Shown: piece after piece, positions 41,268 through 50,646 of the stretch
Layout: every line of letters begins with the position of its first letter
How positions within the stretch are numbered: the stretch's first letter is position 1
Source: Candidatus Marinacidobacterales bacterium
GTDB lineage: Bacteria; Acidobacteriota; Vicinamibacteria; Marinacidobacterales; SMYC01
Length of the DNA stretch: 64,000 nucleotides
Assembly (NCBI GenBank): GCA_965237955.1
Contig: OZ250169.1
Coordinates: 2,816,001-2,880,000, forward strand
Reading direction: 5' to 3'
Position numbers and translations under genes: made by a program
Notes under the pieces: generated by a model
Told to the model about the DNA's origin: nothing
Databases searched by the model: none
Seen by the model: the letters and a program-made list of their open reading frames with translations, nothing else

Positions 41268-41786
41268 TTGTTTACTGCGTATTCCAGCCATCGTGAACGC
41301 CGAATCCAGAGCAAGCTGAACAGCGAATCCGGTGAAGCCGAACGCTCATCGAAGCGATGAAGTGTTGGGTGACCTCCTTCCCACTGATTGAAAACGTGAA
41401 CCTATCTTACCTGCGTGTTGTGTAGCAAGGGGCGGCAGGTCGGTGCCGGAGGGAGCGGGCGTAAGGAAAGACGCGAAGCGACCTTCCCGCTCCCGTCCTG
41501 TGCCAAAATTAGGCCCTTTTGAAATAAACAACAAATCAGCAGCTTAGTGTCTGTGTTTGCGCCCGGGCCAAGGGCGTGCAATTCCTACTCCTCGTTCTGG
41601 CTGGCTGACTCAACCGCCAGGAGCAGGATGTGATCGACTACCTGCGAGAGGAGAACCGTGTGCTCCGATCCTGTGCGCGCGGATGAATAAATAGAAGGTA
41701 CAACCGGCAGTTCGCCAATCTCATACAGCTCGAGTTTATGGAAGGGACAACCCTCGGAGCGGAACCCGGCTGTGCTGACCCGCGCG

Positions 41787-44258
41787 TCAGAACCTGAACT
41801 TCATCTCGCCTACAACGGTCCGCCGGAGCAGGTCGCCGAAGATGTGCTGCTGGACAGTTTGGTTGAACAGGTTGGTCACCTTCACCGTCGTCGTGACGGT
41901 GCCTCCCTGCCACTTCACCCCGAAGCTACCGTTCACCGTCGCGTACCCGTCGGTGTAGCCGTGATACGCCGACGTGAGGACGTCGCTCCAGAACGCGTCG
42001 GTGGCGGCGTTCACCGAGGCGGAGCCCAGCAGCCTCGACCCGTTCCACGTCATCGCTGCGTTGAACCGGTGCGTCGGGGGCAGGTTGAGCTCCGCCGGCA
42101 GATACGGGTTCGGATTGTCCAGGATCTCCGGTTCGGACTGCCACGAGTAGTTGATGGACGCGGCTAGCGACCGTGAGACCTTCTGTTCGAGCCACAGCTC
42201 CATGCCGGTCTGGCGGATCGGACCCAAATTCAGGTATGTGAACGCGGTTCGAGGCAGAAAGATCCCTAACTGCGCCATCTGCGTCAGCACGAGCGGCGGG
42301 AGCCGCCATCCGGGCGGTGGACTTGCTGCGGTATACGGGTCGAGACTTGGCGGCAGCGCGGTGAAGTTGATGGAGTCATCCCGCCGGTTGACGAAGAACG
42401 AGCCGCCGAGCGTCGTCCCGCGCGGGAGCACGCCAGTGTAGCTCACTTCGTACGCCGTCAACGATTCCTCCGTCAACTCGTCCTGGGGCATCCCGCCGAT
42501 CGGGATGTCGCTGCCGGACGCGCCGACCACGAGCGGAAACGGCTGGGCGACCGCTGGCTGCAGCACCGGCGGCAGAAGCGGCGCGAGGGCGCTCAGGTCC
42601 ACCGGGCTGACGATGTTCGTCTGCAGGGCGTTGTTGATGACCGACGGCGCACGGAAGGCTCGGTTGTACGACAGCGTGACGGAGTGATCCTCTGCCGGCT
42701 TGACGATGAACGCGATCCGCGGCGAGAACTTTGGGTCGGAGAGGTTGCCGAATTTGTCCACGCGCCCGCCCAGAACGAGGCGGAACCGTTCCCAGAAGAT
42801 CTCGTCCTGCAGGTACCCGCCCACCTCGAGGCGGTTCTCGCCAAGCGGTGCGAGGGTGATGTCGAAGTTGTTCTGCCGCACGTTGCCACCGTAGTTCAGC
42901 CGGTGCCGGCTTCCGAGGAACACCGAGTGGCCGATCTCGCCGTCGAACGTCTGTGACTTGAAGTCGAGCTGCTGCGGCATCCCGGTGGCGATGTCCGGCA
43001 GCAACAGGTTCGGTGCCTTGCCGTCCAGGAAGTTCGCGAAGAACTGTATCTGCAGGTCGCCCCGCGTGTAGTTCAGCTTGCCGTAGCCCATGTATGTCCC
43101 CGACTGCATGTCGAACGGACCGATGCCGCTGTGGACGATTCCTTCCGTGCCGGCCACGCCGCCCGAGTAAGTGATGGTGGCATCGGACAGCTCCTGGTCG
43201 ACCCGCACCTCGAACTTCGGCTGGCTGGTGCCCCGGTTCGCGAATCCGGTCCCGAATGCGGCGGTGCCCGAGTCCAGAGGGTAGAACGCTCCTCCCACGG
43301 TCTGTCCGGGCTGACGCGGGTCGTCGATCACCGGGATCCGGCCCGTCGGCCGGGCGAACGCGTCGGACCTGAAGTAGCCGCCGCTGACGCGGTACGACAG
43401 CCGGTCGCTCGGCGCCCGCGTCACGGTCGCGTTCGCACCGAACATCGAGCCCTCGCCAAGTCCGACGCCCGATCCGTCATTCCGGTCGACGTACCCGCCG
43501 CTGAGCGTCACCGTCGTGCCGACCGATTCCCGCGGCGGCTTGGTGATGATGTTGACCGCCCCGGTCATGGCGTTGGCGCCCCACACCGCGGACGCTGGCC
43601 CCCGCACCACCTCGATCTGCTCCACGTCGTCGAAGTTGGTCGGGAGCAGGTCCCACATCACGAGGCCGAAGAAGTCAAGGTAGACGCTGCGTCCGTCCAC
43701 CAGGACGAGCTGCGAGTTCGTCAGCGTGTTGCCGGGGCTGCGGCTGGTGACCTGCACGTCGCGGGCCGAGAGCTGGATCACGTTGACGCCCGGCGTCGCA
43801 CGCAGGAGGTCGCCGTAGTTCTGGGCCGGCGTGGTTTCAAGCGTGGCGGTGGAGATGACCGACATGGACACCGGCGCATCGATCAGCCGGACCTCGTTTC
43901 GCGATGCGGTCACGACCACCGTGTCACCGAAGCTGGCGAGCTGCAGCACCACCTCGGGCAGCACCACCACGCCGTCGGACACCACCACGTCATTGACCGT
44001 CGCATCAGAGAAGCCGGTCAGAGACACGGTCAGCGTGTAGGTGCCCGGAGCGATTCCGCCGGACAGCTCGAAGTCGCCCCGCTCGTCCGAATAGACGGTG
44101 CGCGGTACGCCGTCTCCTCGCAACGTCACGGTGGTGCCCGACAGCACCAGACCGGTCTGGTCAACGACGCTGCCGGTGACGCTTCCGGTCTGCGCCGATC
44201 CGGACGCCGGCCATGTGACGAGCAGGAAAAGGCGCAAAATTCCAACGTGACGAATCAT
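41787..44258 (-). CDS. TonB-dependent receptor
   Basis: SD GGAGG before ATG 44258; carboxypeptidase-like N-domain, DTVVVTASR TonB box, LVLVDGRS, IEVVRGP.SA.WG.NA..G..NIIT, C-terminal F. Confidence 0.92.
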   Translation of the reverse strand: MIRHVGILRLFLLVTWPASGSAQTGSVTGSVVDQTGLVLSGTTVTLRGDGVPRTVYSDERGDFELSGGIAPGTYTLTVSLTGFSDATVNDVVVSDGVVVLPEVVLQLASFGDTVVVTASRNEVRLIDAPVSMSVISTATLETTPAQNYGDLLRATPGVNVIQLSARDVQVTSRSPGNTLTNSQLVLVDGRSVYLDFFGLVMWDLLPTNFDDVEQIEVVRGPASAVWGANAMTGAVNIITKPPRESVGTTVTLSGGYVDRNDGSGVGLGEGSMFGANATVTRAPSDRLSYRVSGGYFRSDAFARPTGRIPVIDDPRQPGQTVGGAFYPLDSGTAAFGTGFANRGTSQPKFEVRVDQELSDATITYSGGVAGTEGIVHSGIGPFDMQSGTYMGYGKLNYTRGDLQIQFFANFLDGKAPNLLLPDIATGMPQQLDFKSQTFDGEIGHSVFLGSRHRLNYGGNVRQNNFDITLAPLGENRLEVGGYLQDEIFWERFRLVLGGRVDKFGNLSDPKFSPRIAFIVKPAEDHSVTLSYNRAFRAPSVINNALQTNIVSPVDLSALAPLLPPVLQPAVAQPFPLVVGASGSDIPIGGMPQDELTEESLTAYEVSYTGVLPRGTTLGGSFFVNRRDDSINFTALPPSLDPYTAASPPPGWRLPPLVLTQMAQLGIFLPRTAFTYLNLGPIRQTGMELWLEQKVSRSLAASINYSWQSEPEILDNPNPYLPAELNLPPTHRFNAAMTWNGSRLLGSASVNAATDAFWSDVLTSAYHGYTDGYATVNGSFGVKWQGGTVTTTVKVTNLFNQTVQQHIFGDLLRRTVVGEMKFRF

Positions 44259-44559
44259 CAAGTAACCTCCACTAAGATTTCGGACGCATGCCAGATGTGG
44301 TCTCGTCATGACCATCACCTCGGATTGTAGATGAAAGATCAGGAAAGTGTCACGAGCAGCACGTGATGCGGGCTGGGCTGACCACACGGTGCCTGACGTT
44401 CAGAGACACCTTCGTGTGCACGCCGACATCCTCATTAATGGCGTTCGCCGACACAGGCAGGCCAGCTGACACTAGCATTCAAACACGGCGTAGCAACATA
44501 TCTGGACTCCTCTAGTCAAGCCCCTTTCTTAATAAATCTTCCATCGAAGCTGCGCATCC

Positions 44560-44770
44560 ATCGCGTCGTGACGAGTGGGTCAGACTGCAAACGTATCTTC
44601 GGCCTCAGTGAGGAGCGTCTTGGGTGCTCCGGGCCATGATGGAAAATCCGCGCGCGAGGAGCCAATCACTTTGAACGACCTCTTAGGGCCAGTGTTGCTA
44701 TCGGCTTGACCCCGCGCCGGTCCGACCGGTACGCCATCAGTTGGATGGGTATCGTCGCAGCCTCTTTTGG
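44560..44770 (-). ncRNA. Predicted bridge RNA / seekRNA of the IS1111-type element (boundaries approximate)
   Basis: The minus strand carries TAGCAACA...TCAAAGTG inside a GCCGAT/ATTGGC stem (target loop) and TTCCATCA...AGATACG (donor loop). These match target TAGCAA-CA-CTTGA and junction TTCCAT-CA-TATCT. Confidence 0.75.
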
Positions 44771-44808
44771 AAGGGAAAAAGGAAAACACGAAAGTGGAGC
44801 CTCTAAGT

Positions 44809-45840
44809 CTAAGCGGCCATCGGCGACTGGAATTCACTCTCGCGGGTGGAGACGGCCCAGACGATCCGGGCGAGTTTGTTGGCGACAGCAATCACGGCCT
44901 TGTTGTGTCCCCGCGAGCGGTGGACCTTCCGAGCCCAGGCGCGGAGCTTGTCGGGCGGGCTCTTACTGACGTTCGCCGCGCGGAGCACGGCGCGCCCGCC
45001 CTGGGTGAGGAGCATACGGAGGTAGGAGTCGCCACGCTTGGTGATGCGTCCGAGGCGGCGAATGTCGCCACTGGAGTTTTCCTTGGGAACTAGGCCGAGG
45101 TAGCTCGAGAAGCGGCGCCCCGATGGGAAGCGGCGAAGATCGCCGACGAAGCCCACGATGGCGGTCGCGGTCAGAAGTCCGATGCCGGGAATGGCGAGAA
45201 GTCGTTGGACTTCAGGAAGCTGCTTGGTGAGCGCCTTGAGCTCGTGCTCGATGCCAGCGCACTTGTCCTTGAGTTCTCGAATCTCGGAGCAGGCATCACG
45301 GAGATGCGAACGGAGCACGTCGGGCAAATCAGAATCAGCGTCTTCGACGAGTTCGAAGAGGGCGGGCACGACGAAGTGAGCGCCCTTTGGGATGATGAAT
45401 CCGAGTTCGCGCAGGATCCCGCGTACGGCATTGATGCGTGCGGTCCGTGTGGAGAGCCATCCTGAGCGCAGGCGATGGAGCGCGGCGAGGCTGTGCTGGT
45501 GCACGGACTTAATGGGCACGGGAAGAATCTCCTCGTTCCTGTAGGCCTCGAGCAACGCTTTGGCGTCGGCGCGGTCGTTCTTGCTCCCGCGTCGATAGGG
45601 CCTCACGAGGTGAGGTGGGAGCAGGACGACGTCGTGTCCCAACCTTCGGAACGTCCTTGCCCAGAAGTGAGCAGAGCCGCAGGCTTCGAGAAGCACGGTG
45701 GCAGCGCTCTGTTTGGCAAAAAACGACACCAACTTGGGTCGACTCACACGGAGTTGCTTGGACACCTTCCCCGCTTCTCCCGAGATGGCAATCTCGAAGA
45801 CGTTCTTTGCAAGATCCACAGCGATCGTCGTATCTTTCAT
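44809..45840 (-). CDS. IS110-family (IS1111 type) recombinase/transposase
   Basis: AVDLAKNVF, LEACGSAHFW, KNDRADA (DEDD RuvC domain); IPGIG..TA, YLGLVP...SSG, GRITKRG..YLR; SD AGGAGG. Confidence 0.95.
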   Translation of the reverse strand: MKDTTIAVDLAKNVFEIAISGEAGKVSKQLRVSRPKLVSFFAKQSAATVLLEACGSAHFWARTFRRLGHDVVLLPPHLVRPYRRGSKNDRADAKALLEAYRNEEILPVPIKSVHQHSLAALHRLRSGWLSTRTARINAVRGILRELGFIIPKGAHFVVPALFELVEDADSDLPDVLRSHLRDACSEIRELKDKCAGIEHELKALTKQLPEVQRLLAIPGIGLLTATAIVGFVGDLRRFPSGRRFSSYLGLVPKENSSGDIRRLGRITKRGDSYLRMLLTQGGRAVLRAANVSKSPPDKLRAWARKVHRSRGHNKAVIAVANKLARIVWAVSTRESEFQSPMAA

Positions 45841-45921
45841 TCGGACTCCTCCTTTTCGATGCGTATTCGACTGACTTTGGCACATCGATGCCGTCTATGT
45901 CAGCGGAGGAGTCCATTCCAT

Positions 45922-46390
45922 CACTTGATGGCGGAAGCACCGAATAGAGTCCATGCCGACGGCAAGAACCAGCGAGAGCCACCCACTTGATGGCGGAAGC
46001 ACCGAATAGAGTCCATGCCGACGGCAAGAACCACTTGATGGCGGAAGCACCGAATAGAGTCCATGCCGACGGCAAGAACCACTTGATGGCGGAAGCACCG
46101 AATAGAGTCCATGCCGACGGCAAGAACCAGCGAGAGCCACCCCTTGATGGCGGAAGCACCGAATAGAGTCCATGCCGACGGCAAGAACCAGCGAGAGCCA
46201 CCCCTTGATGGCGGAAGCACCGAATAGAGTCCATGCCGACGGCAAGAACCAGCGAGAGCCACCCACTTGATGGCGGAAGCACCGAATAGAGTCCATGCCG
46301 ACGGCAAGAACCAGCGAGAGCCACCCCTTGATGGCGGAAGCACCGAATAGAGTCCATGCCGACGGCAAGAACCAGCGAGAGCCACCCACT
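45922..46390. repeat. Tandem array of 8 units (62,48,48,61,61,62,61,62 bp), no spacers
   Basis: Unit CTTGATGGCGGAAGCACCGAATAGAGTCCATGCCGACGGCAAGAACCA[GCGAGAGCCACCC(A)] starts at 45924, 45986, 46034, 46082, 46143, 46204, 46266 and 46327. Confidence 0.95.
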
Positions 46391-47702
46391 GGGGAGCGAC
46401 TGCGGTGGTCAGCCTGATCATCCACGAAGAAATCGCCTATCTAAAGGTGCACGATCTCCCGAGGGCGGTTCGAGACCGGCACATGGAGTGGTGGCATGCC
46501 CCGATTCCCGACGGAGAGGCACCGGAACAGGACTTCGAGCACGCCTGGAAGGCCACCGGCGAGTCCATCCGGAACCGGCTGCGGCTCGGCTTCGACGTGC
46601 TGCTCCACTGCCGGGGTGGTCTGGGACGCGCCGGGACCATCACAGCCCGCCTGCTGGTGGAGTTGGGCGTGCAACCGGACGATGCGATCCGCCGCGTGCG
46701 CGACGCCCGCGAATGGACCATCGAGAACGGCTCCCAGCTGGCTCACGTGAGGCAGTGTTCGGCACAAGCACCATCGGTTCCATCCCGGAGACCGCGGACG
46801 ACATCCACGACCGGGCGCTCGGGGCCTTCCTCGGTCTGGCGGTGGGCGACGCGGTCGGCACGACGCTCGAATTCTGCTCCCGCGATACGCAGCCGCGTCT
46901 AGAAGACATGGTCGGTGGCGGCCCGTTCGATCTGCCGGCCGGCGCTTGGACCGACGACACGGCCATGGCGCTGGCCCTTGCCGACAGCCTGGCGGAATCC
47001 AAGACGCTCGACTGCCGGGACCTGATGGACCGTTTCGTGAAGTGGTGGCGAGACGGAGACTACTCGTGGAGCGGAGACTGCTTCGACATCGGAAACACGA
47101 CCTGCCAAGCGCTCACCCGGTACCTACGGACGGGTGACCCGGTCGCGGGTTCGACCGATCCCTTGAGCGCAGGCAACGGCTCGCTGATGCGGCTCGCCCC
47201 CGTTGCGCTCCGGTTCAGGCACGACCGGCCGCGCCTGATCGCAGCAGCCGCCGACCAGTCCCGGACGACCCACGGAGCCGAGGAAGCAGTGGACGCCTGC
47301 CGGGCGTTCGGCGAGCTCCTAGCGGACGCCATCGCCGGGTCACCGTTCTCGGACGTTCTGGCTCCGAGACGGTTCACGGGAGCGGCGGCAATCACTCAGG
47401 TCATAGCCGGCAGCTGGCGAGGACGGACACGGGATACGATCCGCTCCAGCGGGTACGTCGTTCACACGCTCGAAGCCGCCATCTGGTCAGTCGCCCGCAC
47501 CGGAGACTTCCGCAGCGCGGTGCTGCTCGCGGCCAACCTGGCCGACGACGCCGATACGGTAGCAGCAGTGACGGGGCAGCTCGCCGGCGCCCTCTACGGC
47601 CTGAACGCCATCCCCGACCACTGGCGGGAACGCGTTGCCTGGAAGGATCGACTCCTGGCAGCGGCGCGGCGGTTGCTGTCGGAACCCCTTGCCGACCGGT
47701 AG
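46390..47702 (+). pseudogene. CX5R phosphatase (CDKN3-like) + ADP-ribosylglycohydrolase; 5'-truncated, frame change between domains
   Basis: WGATAVVSLI...LLHCRGGLGRAG; then GLAVGDA.G, WTDDT.M, CFDIGNT, GNGSLMR and DADT.AAVTGQLAGA in another frame from about 46780. Confidence 0.85.
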
Positions 47703-48918: not shown

Positions 48919-50348
48919 CGTCCTGTGCCAAAACTCGGCCCTCTTGAAATAGACCACAAATCAGCAGCTTAGTGTCTGTGTTTGCGACCGGACCAAGGGC
49001 CGTAGGCTTTACAATCGTCTGGCCCGAGGGTGTTATCTTCAGATCCATGATGACGTACCACGTGCAATTCCTACTGCTCGTTCTAGCTGGCTGGGTCAAC
49101 CGCCAGCAGCAGGATGTGATCGACTACCAGCAAGAGGAGAACCGTGTGCTCCGAGCCGGGCTTCGGGGCAAGCGTCTCAGTCTCTCGGACGACGACCGGC
49201 GCAGGCTCGCGGTCAAGGCCCAGGCTTTGGGCCGCGAGGCGCTGGCCCAGATTGCGTCCGTTGCCACACCCGCTACGCTTCTGCGTTGGTACCGCTGCCT
49301 CATCGCAGCCAAGTACGATGGCAGCAAGAACCGGAGCCCAGGCCGACCTCCGACGGCGAAGGACATCCGTGAGCTCATTGTGCGCGTGGCGCGGGAGAAC
49401 CCGACGTGGGGATATACGCGCCTGCGAGGCGCACTCAAGAACCTAGGACATGAACTCGGACGCAACACTATCAAGAGGATCCTCGCCGAGCACGGTATCG
49501 CTCCTGCGCCGGAGCGGGGCAAGAGCATGTCGTGGAGCACCTTCATCAAGGCTCATTGGGGCGCCATCGCTGCGACAGACCTGTTCACCGTCGAGGTTGT
49601 GAACCCGTTCGGGCTCGTCCGCTACCATGTCCTGTTTGTCATCGATATCGCCACTCGCTGCGTGTGCATCGGTGGGATAACGTCGGACACCCCAACGGGG
49701 AGTGGATGAAGCAGGTGGCAAGAAACCTCACTGACATGTGGGATGGTTTCCTCCTTGGCAAGCGATACCTCATCCACGACCGGGACCCGCTATTCACCGA
49801 GGCGGTACGTGGGCTGTTGAGAGATTCAGGCGTGAAGCCCCTTCGCCTTCCCGCTAATAGTCCGAATCTGAACGCATATGCGGAAAGATTCGTTCTCTCC
49901 ATACGTCGAGAGTGTCTCGACCGCTTCGTACCTCTCAGTGAGCGACACCTGCGCACAGCGGTAACCGAATACGTAGTGCACTATCACACAGAACGGAACC
50001 ACCAAGGTCTCGGCAACGAGCTCCTCACACCTCTGCCGGCAAGCGCGAATGACGCTGGCCCCATCGTGTCGCGAGAGCGACTTGGGGGCATTCTCAACTA
50101 CTACTGCCGTGCCGCGTAGATTGTCGCCGGCGACGGTAGCCCCTCGGCGGGCTCGACCGGCGTAGCGTGGAAACAGCTTCAGGAACATGCTTCGATATTC
50201 GCTCTCGACTAGGTGGTCATCTGCATGGTGACGACCCGCCCGCCCAAGACGATTGTAAAGCCCACGGCCCTTGGCCCGGTCGCAAACACAGACACTAAGT
50301 TGCTGATTTATGGCCTATTTCAAAAGGGCCGAGTTTTGGCACAGGACG
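48919..50348 (+). mobile_element. Full-length type A integrase-core (rve/DDE; IS481-like) element, 1430 bp
   Basis: About 100-bp imperfect terminal inverted repeats starting CGTCCTGTGCCAAAACTCGGCCC, enclosing one transposase gene; no target-site duplication. Confidence 0.88.
49047..50119 (+). pseudogene. Type A integrase-core transposase, frameshift near 49690
   Basis: ENPTWGY.R..G.L..LG, W.TF...H, TDLFTV (D), HDRD (D), NAYAERF (E), ERNHQG, RLGG.L.YY. Confidence 0.88.
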
Positions 50349-50646
50349 GGGTATTGAGCCGTCCGTCGGCAGCCGAGGCGACTCTTACGATAACGCTTTG
50401 GCTGAATCCATCATCGGCCTCTACAAGACCGAGGTGATCCGTCGACGCGGGCCCTGGCGTGGTCCTGAGGACGTCGAGTTCGCCACCCTCAAGTAGGTGC
50501 ATTGGTACAACACGCAACGACTCTTGGAGCCGATCGGAAATGTCTCTCCGGTCGAGTACGAGATGAACTACTATCGGTCGCAGGAAGGCTCGCTAGAGAT
50601 GGCGAGACTCAACTAAAACAGTCTCCGGAAAACCCGGGGCGGTTCA
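50349..50646 (+). mobile_element. IS3-family 3' remnant
   Basis: SVG..GDSYDNALAES.IGLYK.EVI; internal stop; right end ...GGCGGTTCA. Confidence 0.82.

What the first reader, a model, noticed from the sequence alone, without database searches (positions are those of the whole stretch)
44491..46390. IS110 bridge-recombinase element abutting a spacer-less tandem array whose units start at its target half-site
Seen: removing the IS (44499-45921) restores TAGCAA-CA-CTTGATGG, and CA-CTTGATGG is the start of the 8-unit array. Unit length varies only at the junction. The 62-bp units join at CC-CA-CTTG, the 48-bp units join at another CA inside the unit (GAAC-CA, normally followed by GCG), and the 61-bp units are 1 nt off. 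The array ends at a further CA (CCCA-CTGGGG) inside a truncated phosphatase gene. Established: IS110 enzymes recombine at a 2-nt core set by a bridge RNA. Inference: the array was built by repeated core-directed recombination rather than slippage, giving an IS110-associated landing pad or decoy array. I do not know this arrangement from the literature.
Basis: partly seen in the sequence, partly recalled or inferred. Interest (0 to 1): 0.85.

Follow-up and report, generated by a model that had tools for sequence, protein, structure and literature searches.

The report
Jumping-gene misjoins build a tandem array
An RNA-guided jumping gene is followed by eight head-to-tail copies of its neighbouring DNA that all begin exactly at its insertion point, likely a functionless by-product of its recombinase joining that end to wrong spots nearby, a side-reaction recently described for this family but seen here on DNA outside the element.

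Summary
The array is in the sequence as described: 8 units of 62, 48, 48, 61, 61, 62, 61 and 62 bp, each starting right after the CA core. The element is IS1111-type, with 24 right ends in this genome. It inserts into the terminal repeat of an IS1-like element/MITE. Each unit is 18 nt of that repeat plus the start of a phosphatase gene, not a dedicated repeat. The same signature recurs: 17 distinct duplication junctions in three genomes all begin exactly 3' of the core and all end in C-N (17 of 17, P about 1e-9), with little or no microhomology. That points to the recombinase and against slippage or assembly error. A landing pad or decoy is not supported: the array is at 1 of 4 paralogous loci, absent from a relative and from 8 laid runs, and holds no insertions. 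Recombinase-linked tandem expansion at IS110 loci is described in an August 2026 preprint, and this scan noted related IS-plus-flank duplications elsewhere. The unusual part is that these units retain only the target half, contain no element DNA, and are as short as 16 bp. No raw reads confirm the array itself.

The parts
44365..44496 (+). Remnant of a 244-bp MITE (left part missing) whose terminal repeat is the target; ends in the left target half TAGCAA
   Evidence: 97% identical to the empty MITE at G000:705071-705204
44497..44498 (+). Left core CA
44499..45923 (-). IS1111-type element, 1425 bp, counting the right core CA at 45922-45923
   Evidence: 24 right and 25 left ends in G000; empty site restored
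44809..45885 (-). IS110-family RNA-guided transposase ORF (likely start ATG at 45840); VDLAK, LEACG, KNDRADA and ENSSG motifs present
   Evidence: PF01548 and PF02371; NF033542 308.7 bits against cut-off 140; motifs
44499..44808 (-). Non-coding region downstream of the transposase; predicted bridge/seek RNA
   Evidence: position; guide matches; no Rfam match
44692..44700 (-). Predicted left-target guide UAGCAACAC
   Evidence: changes with the target in paralogue L003
44667..44671 (-). Predicted right-target guide AAGUG (pairs with CA-CTT)
   Evidence: changes to CAGCG in L003, whose target is CA-CTG
44636..44644 (-). Predicted left-donor guide UUCCAUCAU
44592..44598 (-). Predicted right-donor guide AGAUACG (pairs with CG-TATCT, one mismatch to the CA core)
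44503..44512 (+). Subterminal inverted repeat TGGACTCCTC at the non-coding end
   Evidence: sequence
45906..45915 (-). Subterminal inverted repeat TGGACTCCTC at the transposase-start end
   Evidence: sequence
45924..46388 (+). Tandem array of 8 units (62, 48, 48, 61, 61, 62, 61, 62 bp), each starting at core+1
45924..45941 (+). First 18 nt of every unit: outer part of the IS1-like/MITE terminal repeat (right target half)
   Evidence: follows all 24 right ends in G000 and more than 100 empty ends
45942..45985 (+). Rest of the unit: ribosome-binding region and first codons of a phosphatase/ADP-ribosylglycohydrolase gene
   Evidence: single-copy, MITE-free allele at G000:3055xxx, minus strand
46356..47702 (+). 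Phosphatase/ADP-ribosylglycohydrolase gene with a 137-bp deletion at 46388/46389; phosphatase remnant in another frame (46405-46902)
   Evidence: Pfam PF22784 and PF03747; deletion

Best explanation
The array is a run of tandem copies of the DNA just outside an IS1111-type element, likely started by one-ended misjoining by the element's own recombinase and probably without function. Shown: the element sits at a CA core in the terminal repeat of an IS1-like MITE; every unit starts at the base after that core; and every new junction ends in C-N. Inferred from IS621 structures: the recombinase nicks the window + strand just 3' of the core and holds the 5' end (CTTGATGG...) as a phosphoserine. Inferred: instead of the proper partner, a 3'-OH ending in C-N 16-800 nt downstream is joined to that end, and replication fixes the one-strand join as a head-to-tail duplication. 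The likelier source of that 3'-OH (about 0.48 of the 0.75) is a second nick at a poorly matched site on the sister copy, i.e. half-match chemistry; the alternative (about 0.27) is given as the first rival. At least three such joins (62, 61 and 48 bp) seeded this array. At least one of them used, or was moved to, an internal junction, because a 62-bp unit stands ahead of the 48-bp units. Other copies may come from ordinary unequal exchange between identical units.
For: 17 distinct junctions (9 in G000, 1 in G033, 7 in G012): all start at core+1; 17 of 17 have C at core position 1 (5.0 expected, P about 1e-9); 11 are CA (0.9 expected), 2 CG, 2 CC, 2 CT. Six have no left microhomology, and right microhomology is 0-2 nt. 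Eight of 56 perfect tandem-duplication loci in G000 start at this element's cores, against about 0.001 expected. Of 41 terminal-repeat ends with an unusual upstream side, the 11 with an upstream copy all trace to an IS junction. Full off-target insertions in G012 take the left core from the target (CT, CG) and the right core from the donor (CA), which fixes the crossover 3' of the core on the + strand, the same register as the duplications. Four guide-like matches lie in the non-coding region in IS621 order, and both target guides change with the target in a 91%-identical paralogue. IS621 is cut 3' of the core with a 5'-phosphoserine, and after exchange the right guides pair with only the incoming core, plus two handshake bases (PMC13626964, passages). 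Half-match recombination is shown in vitro (10.64898/2026.08.31.748434). Tandem repeats arose as by-products in 3 of 96 colonies for CazIS110 (10.1101/2025.10.25.684509). G012 has the same mixed-length architecture at the other junction (19, 29, 454, 29, 382, 428 bp; and 46, 46).
Against: No raw reads: contigs of 8 public runs laid on a paralogue show the empty allele but no array or duplication joint (contigs drop rare variants, and the joint tables showed none). Target-side duplications were found only in G000: 5 of 24 right ends (3 independent loci), 0 of 68 in five relatives, and no core-anchored case in the GTDB or JGI scans (this genome's own records may be left out of those scans). Both mechanistic preprints find joins to the right target half by a non-donor strand rare or absent (34-fold lower; none), yet the array needs them. 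The donated sites match the guides only weakly (left-donor likeness 36 vs 23.7, P=0.003; left-target likeness P=0.05; no match on the far side, P=0.34 and 0.77). Two of the 17 junctions lie in G012 units with internal rearrangements that may include assembly noise. Activity of this transposase was not tested.
Confidence: 0.75

Rival explanations
1. Nick, extend, rejoin (a route within the best explanation). The recombinase nicks at the core and stays on the 5' end. A host polymerase extends the free 3'-OH by strand displacement, and the enzyme religates when the new end presents C-N. This duplicates exactly the stretch copied and needs no second cut site.
For: Strict polarity: all 17 duplications lie 3' of the core, and all 93 left-donor ends examined (25 in G000, 68 in relatives) are followed by a guide-matching target half, with no reciprocal deletions. 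Units of 16, 19 and 29 bp are too short for two sites on one duplex to synapse (established DNA stiffness, recalled). There is no guide match beyond the donated core.
Against: Deletion-type joins to the same end exist (G000:3137927, the inside of an IS1-like gene joined at CA to the terminal repeat) and cannot be made by extension. Weak left-donor likeness of the donated ends suggests recognition of a second site. Half-match products form in a cell-free system without host repair. Search one search found no paper describing this route.
Confidence: 0.27
2. Ordinary replication slippage or microhomology-mediated duplication next to an IS end, without the recombinase.
For: 11 of 17 junctions share the CA dinucleotide, and the 62-bp join shares CACT; identical units amplify easily once two exist; the 61-bp form could be a 1-nt loss from the 62-bp junction.
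Against: Six junctions have no left microhomology but keep the first core C. Starts are pinned to core+1 in 17 of 17. Duplications of 292-565 bp have 0-2 nt of homology. None starts at the 116 empty ends with almost the same sequence.
Confidence: 0.08
3. Assembly or consensus artefact of a repeat-rich metagenome-assembled genome.
For: No independent reads show the array; the genome is packed with repeats and has 6.2% estimated contamination; some G012 units look chimeric.
Against: An assembler has no reason to place every breakpoint at core+1 and after C-N in three separately assembled genomes. The 16-bp duplication is shared by three paralogous loci that differ by point changes. The genome is one contig.
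Confidence: 0.07
4. A maintained landing pad or decoy array that attracts or titrates the recombinase.
For: Each unit recreates core plus right target half. Unit order implies that an internal junction was reused or a unit was moved.
Against: Present at 1 of 4 paralogous loci and absent from the same insertion site in G015. No IS sits in any of the 7 internal junctions. They lack the TAGCAA half found at 18 of the 19 genuine left junctions in G000. The genome already holds at least 116 empty ends. The units are essentially identical, hence recent.
Confidence: 0.05
5. The IS1-like transposase acting on its own terminal repeat built the array.
For: Every unit contains the outer 18 nt of that repeat, and an apparently autonomous IS1-like copy exists.
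Against: The variable junctions lie inside the repeat at the IS1111 core, while the outer end GCACC|GAATAG is constant in all units. A duplication anchored at the outer end looks different (L113).
Confidence: 0.03

Closest known systems
[quoted passage not shown] 4B and 4E; read: parts 1-4 of 7 and passages; figures and supplements not seen)
   Same: In-place tandem expansion at an IS110-family locus (n = 468 cases), one-sided boundaries, attributed to the resident recombinase. The partial element-end duplications in G000, G012 and G033 look like this class; read on the transposase strand they are 'LD-only' (my inference).
   Different: There, repeat units retain a donor half of the element. 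The window's units contain no element DNA and retain the target half. In the text read, that paper set a 50-bp minimum unit, did not classify target-half boundaries and did not report a first-core-base rule. Its supplements may bear on this.
Half-match recombination by IS621 (Xie et al.; bioRxiv 10.64898/2026.08.31.748434; read: parts 1-3 of 6)
   Same: One matched arm plus the core suffices; single-strand exchange; a new right-target half alone gave product in vitro.
   Different: Shown for IS621 with a full donor partner. LT-RT rejoining was 34-fold rarer, RT-only sites were excluded from the genomic tally, and no flank arrays are described in the parts read.
Tandem cargo repeats and direct top-strand transfer by CazIS110-1 (Sun et al.; bioRxiv 10.1101/2025.10.25.684509; read: parts 1-3 of 5)
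   Same: Top-strand-only joins; tandem repeats as by-products (3 of 96 colonies); one-ended new-target-to-RD junctions.
   Different: The repeats were of the whole cargo between correct ends; target regeneration was not seen.
IS1111 family members that target other elements' repeats: IS4321/IS5075 in Tn21 terminal repeats (Partridge and Hall 2003; title seen in reference lists only) and seekRNA elements (Siddiquee et al., PMC11187229; read: part 1 of 9 and passages)
   Same: Subterminal inverted repeats, downstream non-coding region, fixed site and orientation inside a terminal inverted repeat.
   Different: The target here is the terminal repeat of an IS1-like element and its MITEs; search returned two papers, not read, neither evidently on this target.

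Membership tests
IS110 superfamily (bridge recombinases) | DEDD RuvC-like domain plus Tnp20 domain with catalytic serine | tested here: met
   PF01548 and PF02371 above cut-off; NF033542 308.7 bits; motifs present
IS110 superfamily (bridge recombinases) | Insertion at a short core without target duplication | tested here: met
   CA core; empty sites in the genome and in public contigs
IS110 superfamily (bridge recombinases) | Non-coding region with guides for target and donor halves | tested here: met
   four matches in the expected order; both target guides change with the target in L003; the fold itself is not better than shuffles (z -0.73)
IS110 superfamily (bridge recombinases) | RNA is expressed, binds the enzyme, and the complex recombines DNA | not testable with these tools
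IS1111 group | Long non-coding region downstream of the transposase gene | tested here: met
   310 nt at 44499-44808
IS1111 group | Subterminal inverted repeats of about 11-13 bp with asymmetric extensions (7 or 6, and 3 bp) | tested here: met
   perfect 10-bp TGGACTCCTC with extensions of 6 (plus core) and 4 nt; slightly off the usual lengths (definition from PMC11187229)
IS1111 group | Transposase groups with IS1111 in a tree | not tested
   no tree built
IS110 tandem expansion class of Hu et al. 2026 | Tandem non-coding units (at least 50 bp, at least 95% identity) next to the transposase | tested here: met
   61- and 62-bp units, 98% matches
IS110 tandem expansion class of Hu et al. 2026 | Unit boundaries retain a donor half (LD-only) | tested here: not met
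   window units retain the right target half and no donor sequence; the element-end duplications elsewhere do retain a donor half
CRISPR/TIGR-like guide arrays | Repeats separated by variable spacers | tested here: not met
   units identical except at the junction; no Rfam match
IS1 family (host element) | IS1 transposase between terminal inverted repeats of about 23 bp | tested here: inconclusive
   1197-bp element at G000:3086457-3087653; best hit NF033558 E 5.9e-22, 78.6 bits, below the cut-off of 100

The most novel reading that the evidence does not exclude
IS1111 recombinases keep nicking their own insertion junctions after transposition and rejoin the held 5' end to almost any nearby 3' end finishing in C-N, possibly one made by polymerase extension of the nick itself. 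This works on the target half as well as the donor half, so an inserted element iteratively writes mixed-length tandem arrays of host DNA outside its own boundaries, and each new junction can be used again. Bridge-editing junctions would carry the same liability.
Probability: 0.3. Interest if true: 0.7.

Novelty: new variant of a known kind. Interest (0 to 1): 0.42.

Why it matters
It is a clean natural record of a side-reaction of RNA-guided recombinases that are being developed as editors. The 17 junctions give testable rules: start fixed 3' of the core, only the first core base required, strict polarity, units down to 16 bp, and joins to the target half, which two recent studies found rare. 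Hu et al. call the end asymmetry unresolved, and this element offers a direct substrate set for it. It is not a new functional system.

Tried and rejected
Rfam scan of 44200-46600: no match. Folding of the non-coding region: no better than shuffles, so guide assignment rests on matches and covariation. Public runs: 8 of the 24 listed were laid, on paralogue L001 rather than on the array; all were contigs; no duplication joints were listed; the empty allele appeared as a joint in 5 of 8. This shows nothing about the source sample. Pattern scans for 15-75 bp repeats of the terminal-repeat end: 1 hit in genome contigs, anchored at the outer MITE end and so a different event; 0 in metagenome contigs. 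Of 55 genomes of the order, 7 carry the occupied right junction; flanks were read for G000, G008, G012, G015, G018 and G033 only, not for G013's single site or two further G018 sites. The left-end pattern missed the G008/G012/G015 variant, so left ends there were seen only inside fetched loci (59 matches). An off-by-one offset affected the lengths and right-microhomology values of four G000 junctions; corrected (338, 473, 396, 292 bp). Truncated IS copies were checked for reciprocal deletions from the left target; none of the 7 looked at was preceded by it. Considered and rejected: guide array, IS1-transposase origin, landing pad. Literature searches; none returned a description of target-half-anchored flank arrays, but bioRxiv supplements and figures could not be seen.

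Full report
Observation. The array is present as described: eight units starting at 45924, of 62, 48, 48, 61, 61, 62, 61 and 62 bp, identical except at the junctions. The end of the array is a 137-bp deletion in the adjacent gene. Its far breakpoint is CG in 4 of 5 homologous alleles, including the closest, so it is not simply another CA.

The element. The minus-strand ORF is an IS110-family transposase with its catalytic motifs. A 310-nt non-coding region lies downstream of the gene and 10-bp subterminal inverted repeats flank the element, which is the IS1111 layout described in PMC11187229 (part 1 and passages). The non-coding region holds four guide-like matches in IS621 order: left target 44692-44700, right target 44667-44671, left donor 44636-44644 and right donor 44592-44598. 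In a 91%-identical paralogue (L003) with the different target TAACAAT-CA-CTG, both target guides have changed to match. This is one natural reprogramming event. The RNA fold is not better than shuffles.

What the unit is. All 24 right ends in this genome are followed by CTTGATGGCGGAAGCACC or a close variant. That sequence is the outer end of the terminal inverted repeat of an abundant MITE family and of a 1197-bp IS1-like element (best family hit below cut-off). At least 116 such ends are empty. The rest of the unit is the start of a phosphatase/ADP-ribosylglycohydrolase gene. The MITE-free allele of that gene, the allele with the MITE end but no IS (contigs), and the allele with the IS and one unit (three paralogues in G000; G015) were all seen. 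The inferred order is therefore gene, MITE end, IS1111 insertion, then duplication.

The signature repeats. In G000, 5 of 24 right ends carry a duplication starting at core+1: the window array, a 16-bp unit shared by three paralogues, and a 79-bp unit at an unrelated site. Six of 25 left ends are preceded by a partial copy of the element that also starts at core+1 (338, 473, 396 and 292 bp). In five relatives, 11 of 59 left-end matches show the same, including a mixed-length array in G012 (19, 29, 454, 29, 382, 428 bp); 0 of 68 right ends do. Across 17 distinct junctions the donated end has C at the first core position in 17 (5.0 expected; P about 1e-9), and the core is CA in 11, CG in 2, CC in 2 and CT in 2. 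The 61-bp unit is thus a CC-core join, a type also seen in G033. Two of the 17 lie in G012 units with internal rearrangements; without them the count is 15 of 15. The donated side is weakly like the left donor (36 vs 23.7 matches, P=0.003) and marginally like the left target (P=0.05). The far side matches neither right half (P=0.34 and 0.77). Genome-wide, 8 of 56 perfect tandem-duplication loci start at this element's cores, about 5 independent events, against about 0.001 loci expected. All 93 left-donor ends examined are followed by a guide-matching target half, so there are no joins of the opposite polarity at that end.

Mechanism. Off-target full insertions in G012 take the left core from the target and the right core from the donor, which places the crossover 3' of the core on the window + strand. 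IS621 is cut there, leaving a 3'-OH on the core and a 5'-phosphoserine on the next base; after exchange the right guides pair with only the incoming core, plus two handshake bases (PMC13626964, passages). The duplications share that register. I infer that the held 5' end was joined to a wrong 3'-OH ending in C-N downstream and that replication fixed the join. Half-match recombination (10.64898/2026.08.31.748434, parts 1-3) and tandem by-products of top-strand copy-out (10.1101/2025.10.25.684509, parts 1-3) make a second nick on the sister copy the likelier source. Extension of the nick itself followed by religation explains the polarity and the 16-29 bp units at least as well, but not deletion-type joins such as G000:3137927. 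Three junction types seed the array. A 62-bp unit ahead of the 48-bp units means an internal junction was reused or a unit was moved; the remaining copies may be ordinary unequal exchange.

Results against. No raw reads confirm the array; contigs of 8 runs laid on a paralogue list no duplication joints. Target-side duplications were seen only in G000. The two mechanistic preprints find joins to the right target half by a non-donor strand rare or absent. Activity of the enzyme is untested.

Function. The array is private to one of four paralogous loci, holds no insertions, lacks the left target half and sits beside a damaged gene. A landing pad or decoy is unlikely.

Comparison and novelty. Hu et al. 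(10.64898/2026.08.14.744561, parts 1-4 and passages) report 468 cases of tandem non-coding units beside IS110 transposases, with one-sided donor boundaries, and call the asymmetry unresolved. The element-end duplications here fit that class. The window array differs in lying wholly outside the element and retaining the target half; I did not find that in the text read or in searches, but figures and supplements were not visible. Two earlier notes of this scan describe IS-plus-flank duplications at the core in other genomes; I had found the preprint before seeing them and did not check them. Verdict: new variant of a known side-reaction; interest 0.42.

Noticed in passing
G000:C1:5882274-5889019: A second, distant IS110-family element (about 28% protein identity) forms a four-copy tandem array. 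Its end (...GATCC-TG) is joined either to flank DNA about 140 bp before the element or to a TG site inside it: the donor-anchored type of misjoin.
   Followed up: partly
L003 (G000:C1:5245500-5247600): 91%-identical paralogue with both target guides changed to match a different target (TAACAAT-CA-CTG), with a 1-nt shorter loop: a natural reprogramming.
   Followed up: partly
window 46356-47702: The window allele carries the phosphatase and hydrolase domains in different frames; the 137-bp deletion puts the hydrolase domain back in frame with the original start codon (448-aa ORF). Could be chance (1 in 3).
   Followed up: no
L002 (G000:C1:3055000-3056400, minus strand): The MITE-free phosphatase/hydrolase gene is preceded by GTTAGAG, like an integron cassette core site (motif recalled); the genome has one integron integrase above cut-off at about 3346421. 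attC sites were not tested.
   Followed up: partly
G000:C1:289216, 3137927, 7884667, 1145282(-), 947407(-), 122393(-): Terminal-repeat ends joined at core+1 to unrelated upstream DNA (cores CA four times, CC once, AA once); possibly long-range one-ended joins.
   Followed up: partly
L074, L076-L079, L081 (G012): Six copies inserted at off-target sites that keep only CTT/CTC on the right; G012 also has the most element-end duplications.
   Followed up: partly
G000:C1:704979-705222 and window 48919-50352, 41276-41496: A 244-bp MITE with 23-bp terminal repeats that, with the IS1111 inside, recurs as a 1666-1674 bp composite; two other very high-copy repeats (a 1434-bp integrase-domain IS and a 221-bp repeat) lie in the window.
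   Followed up: no
L113:1666-1763: Duplication of a 39-bp MITE end anchored at the outer end of the terminal repeat, in a record titled Candidatus Marinacidobacterales; a different event type.
   Followed up: partly
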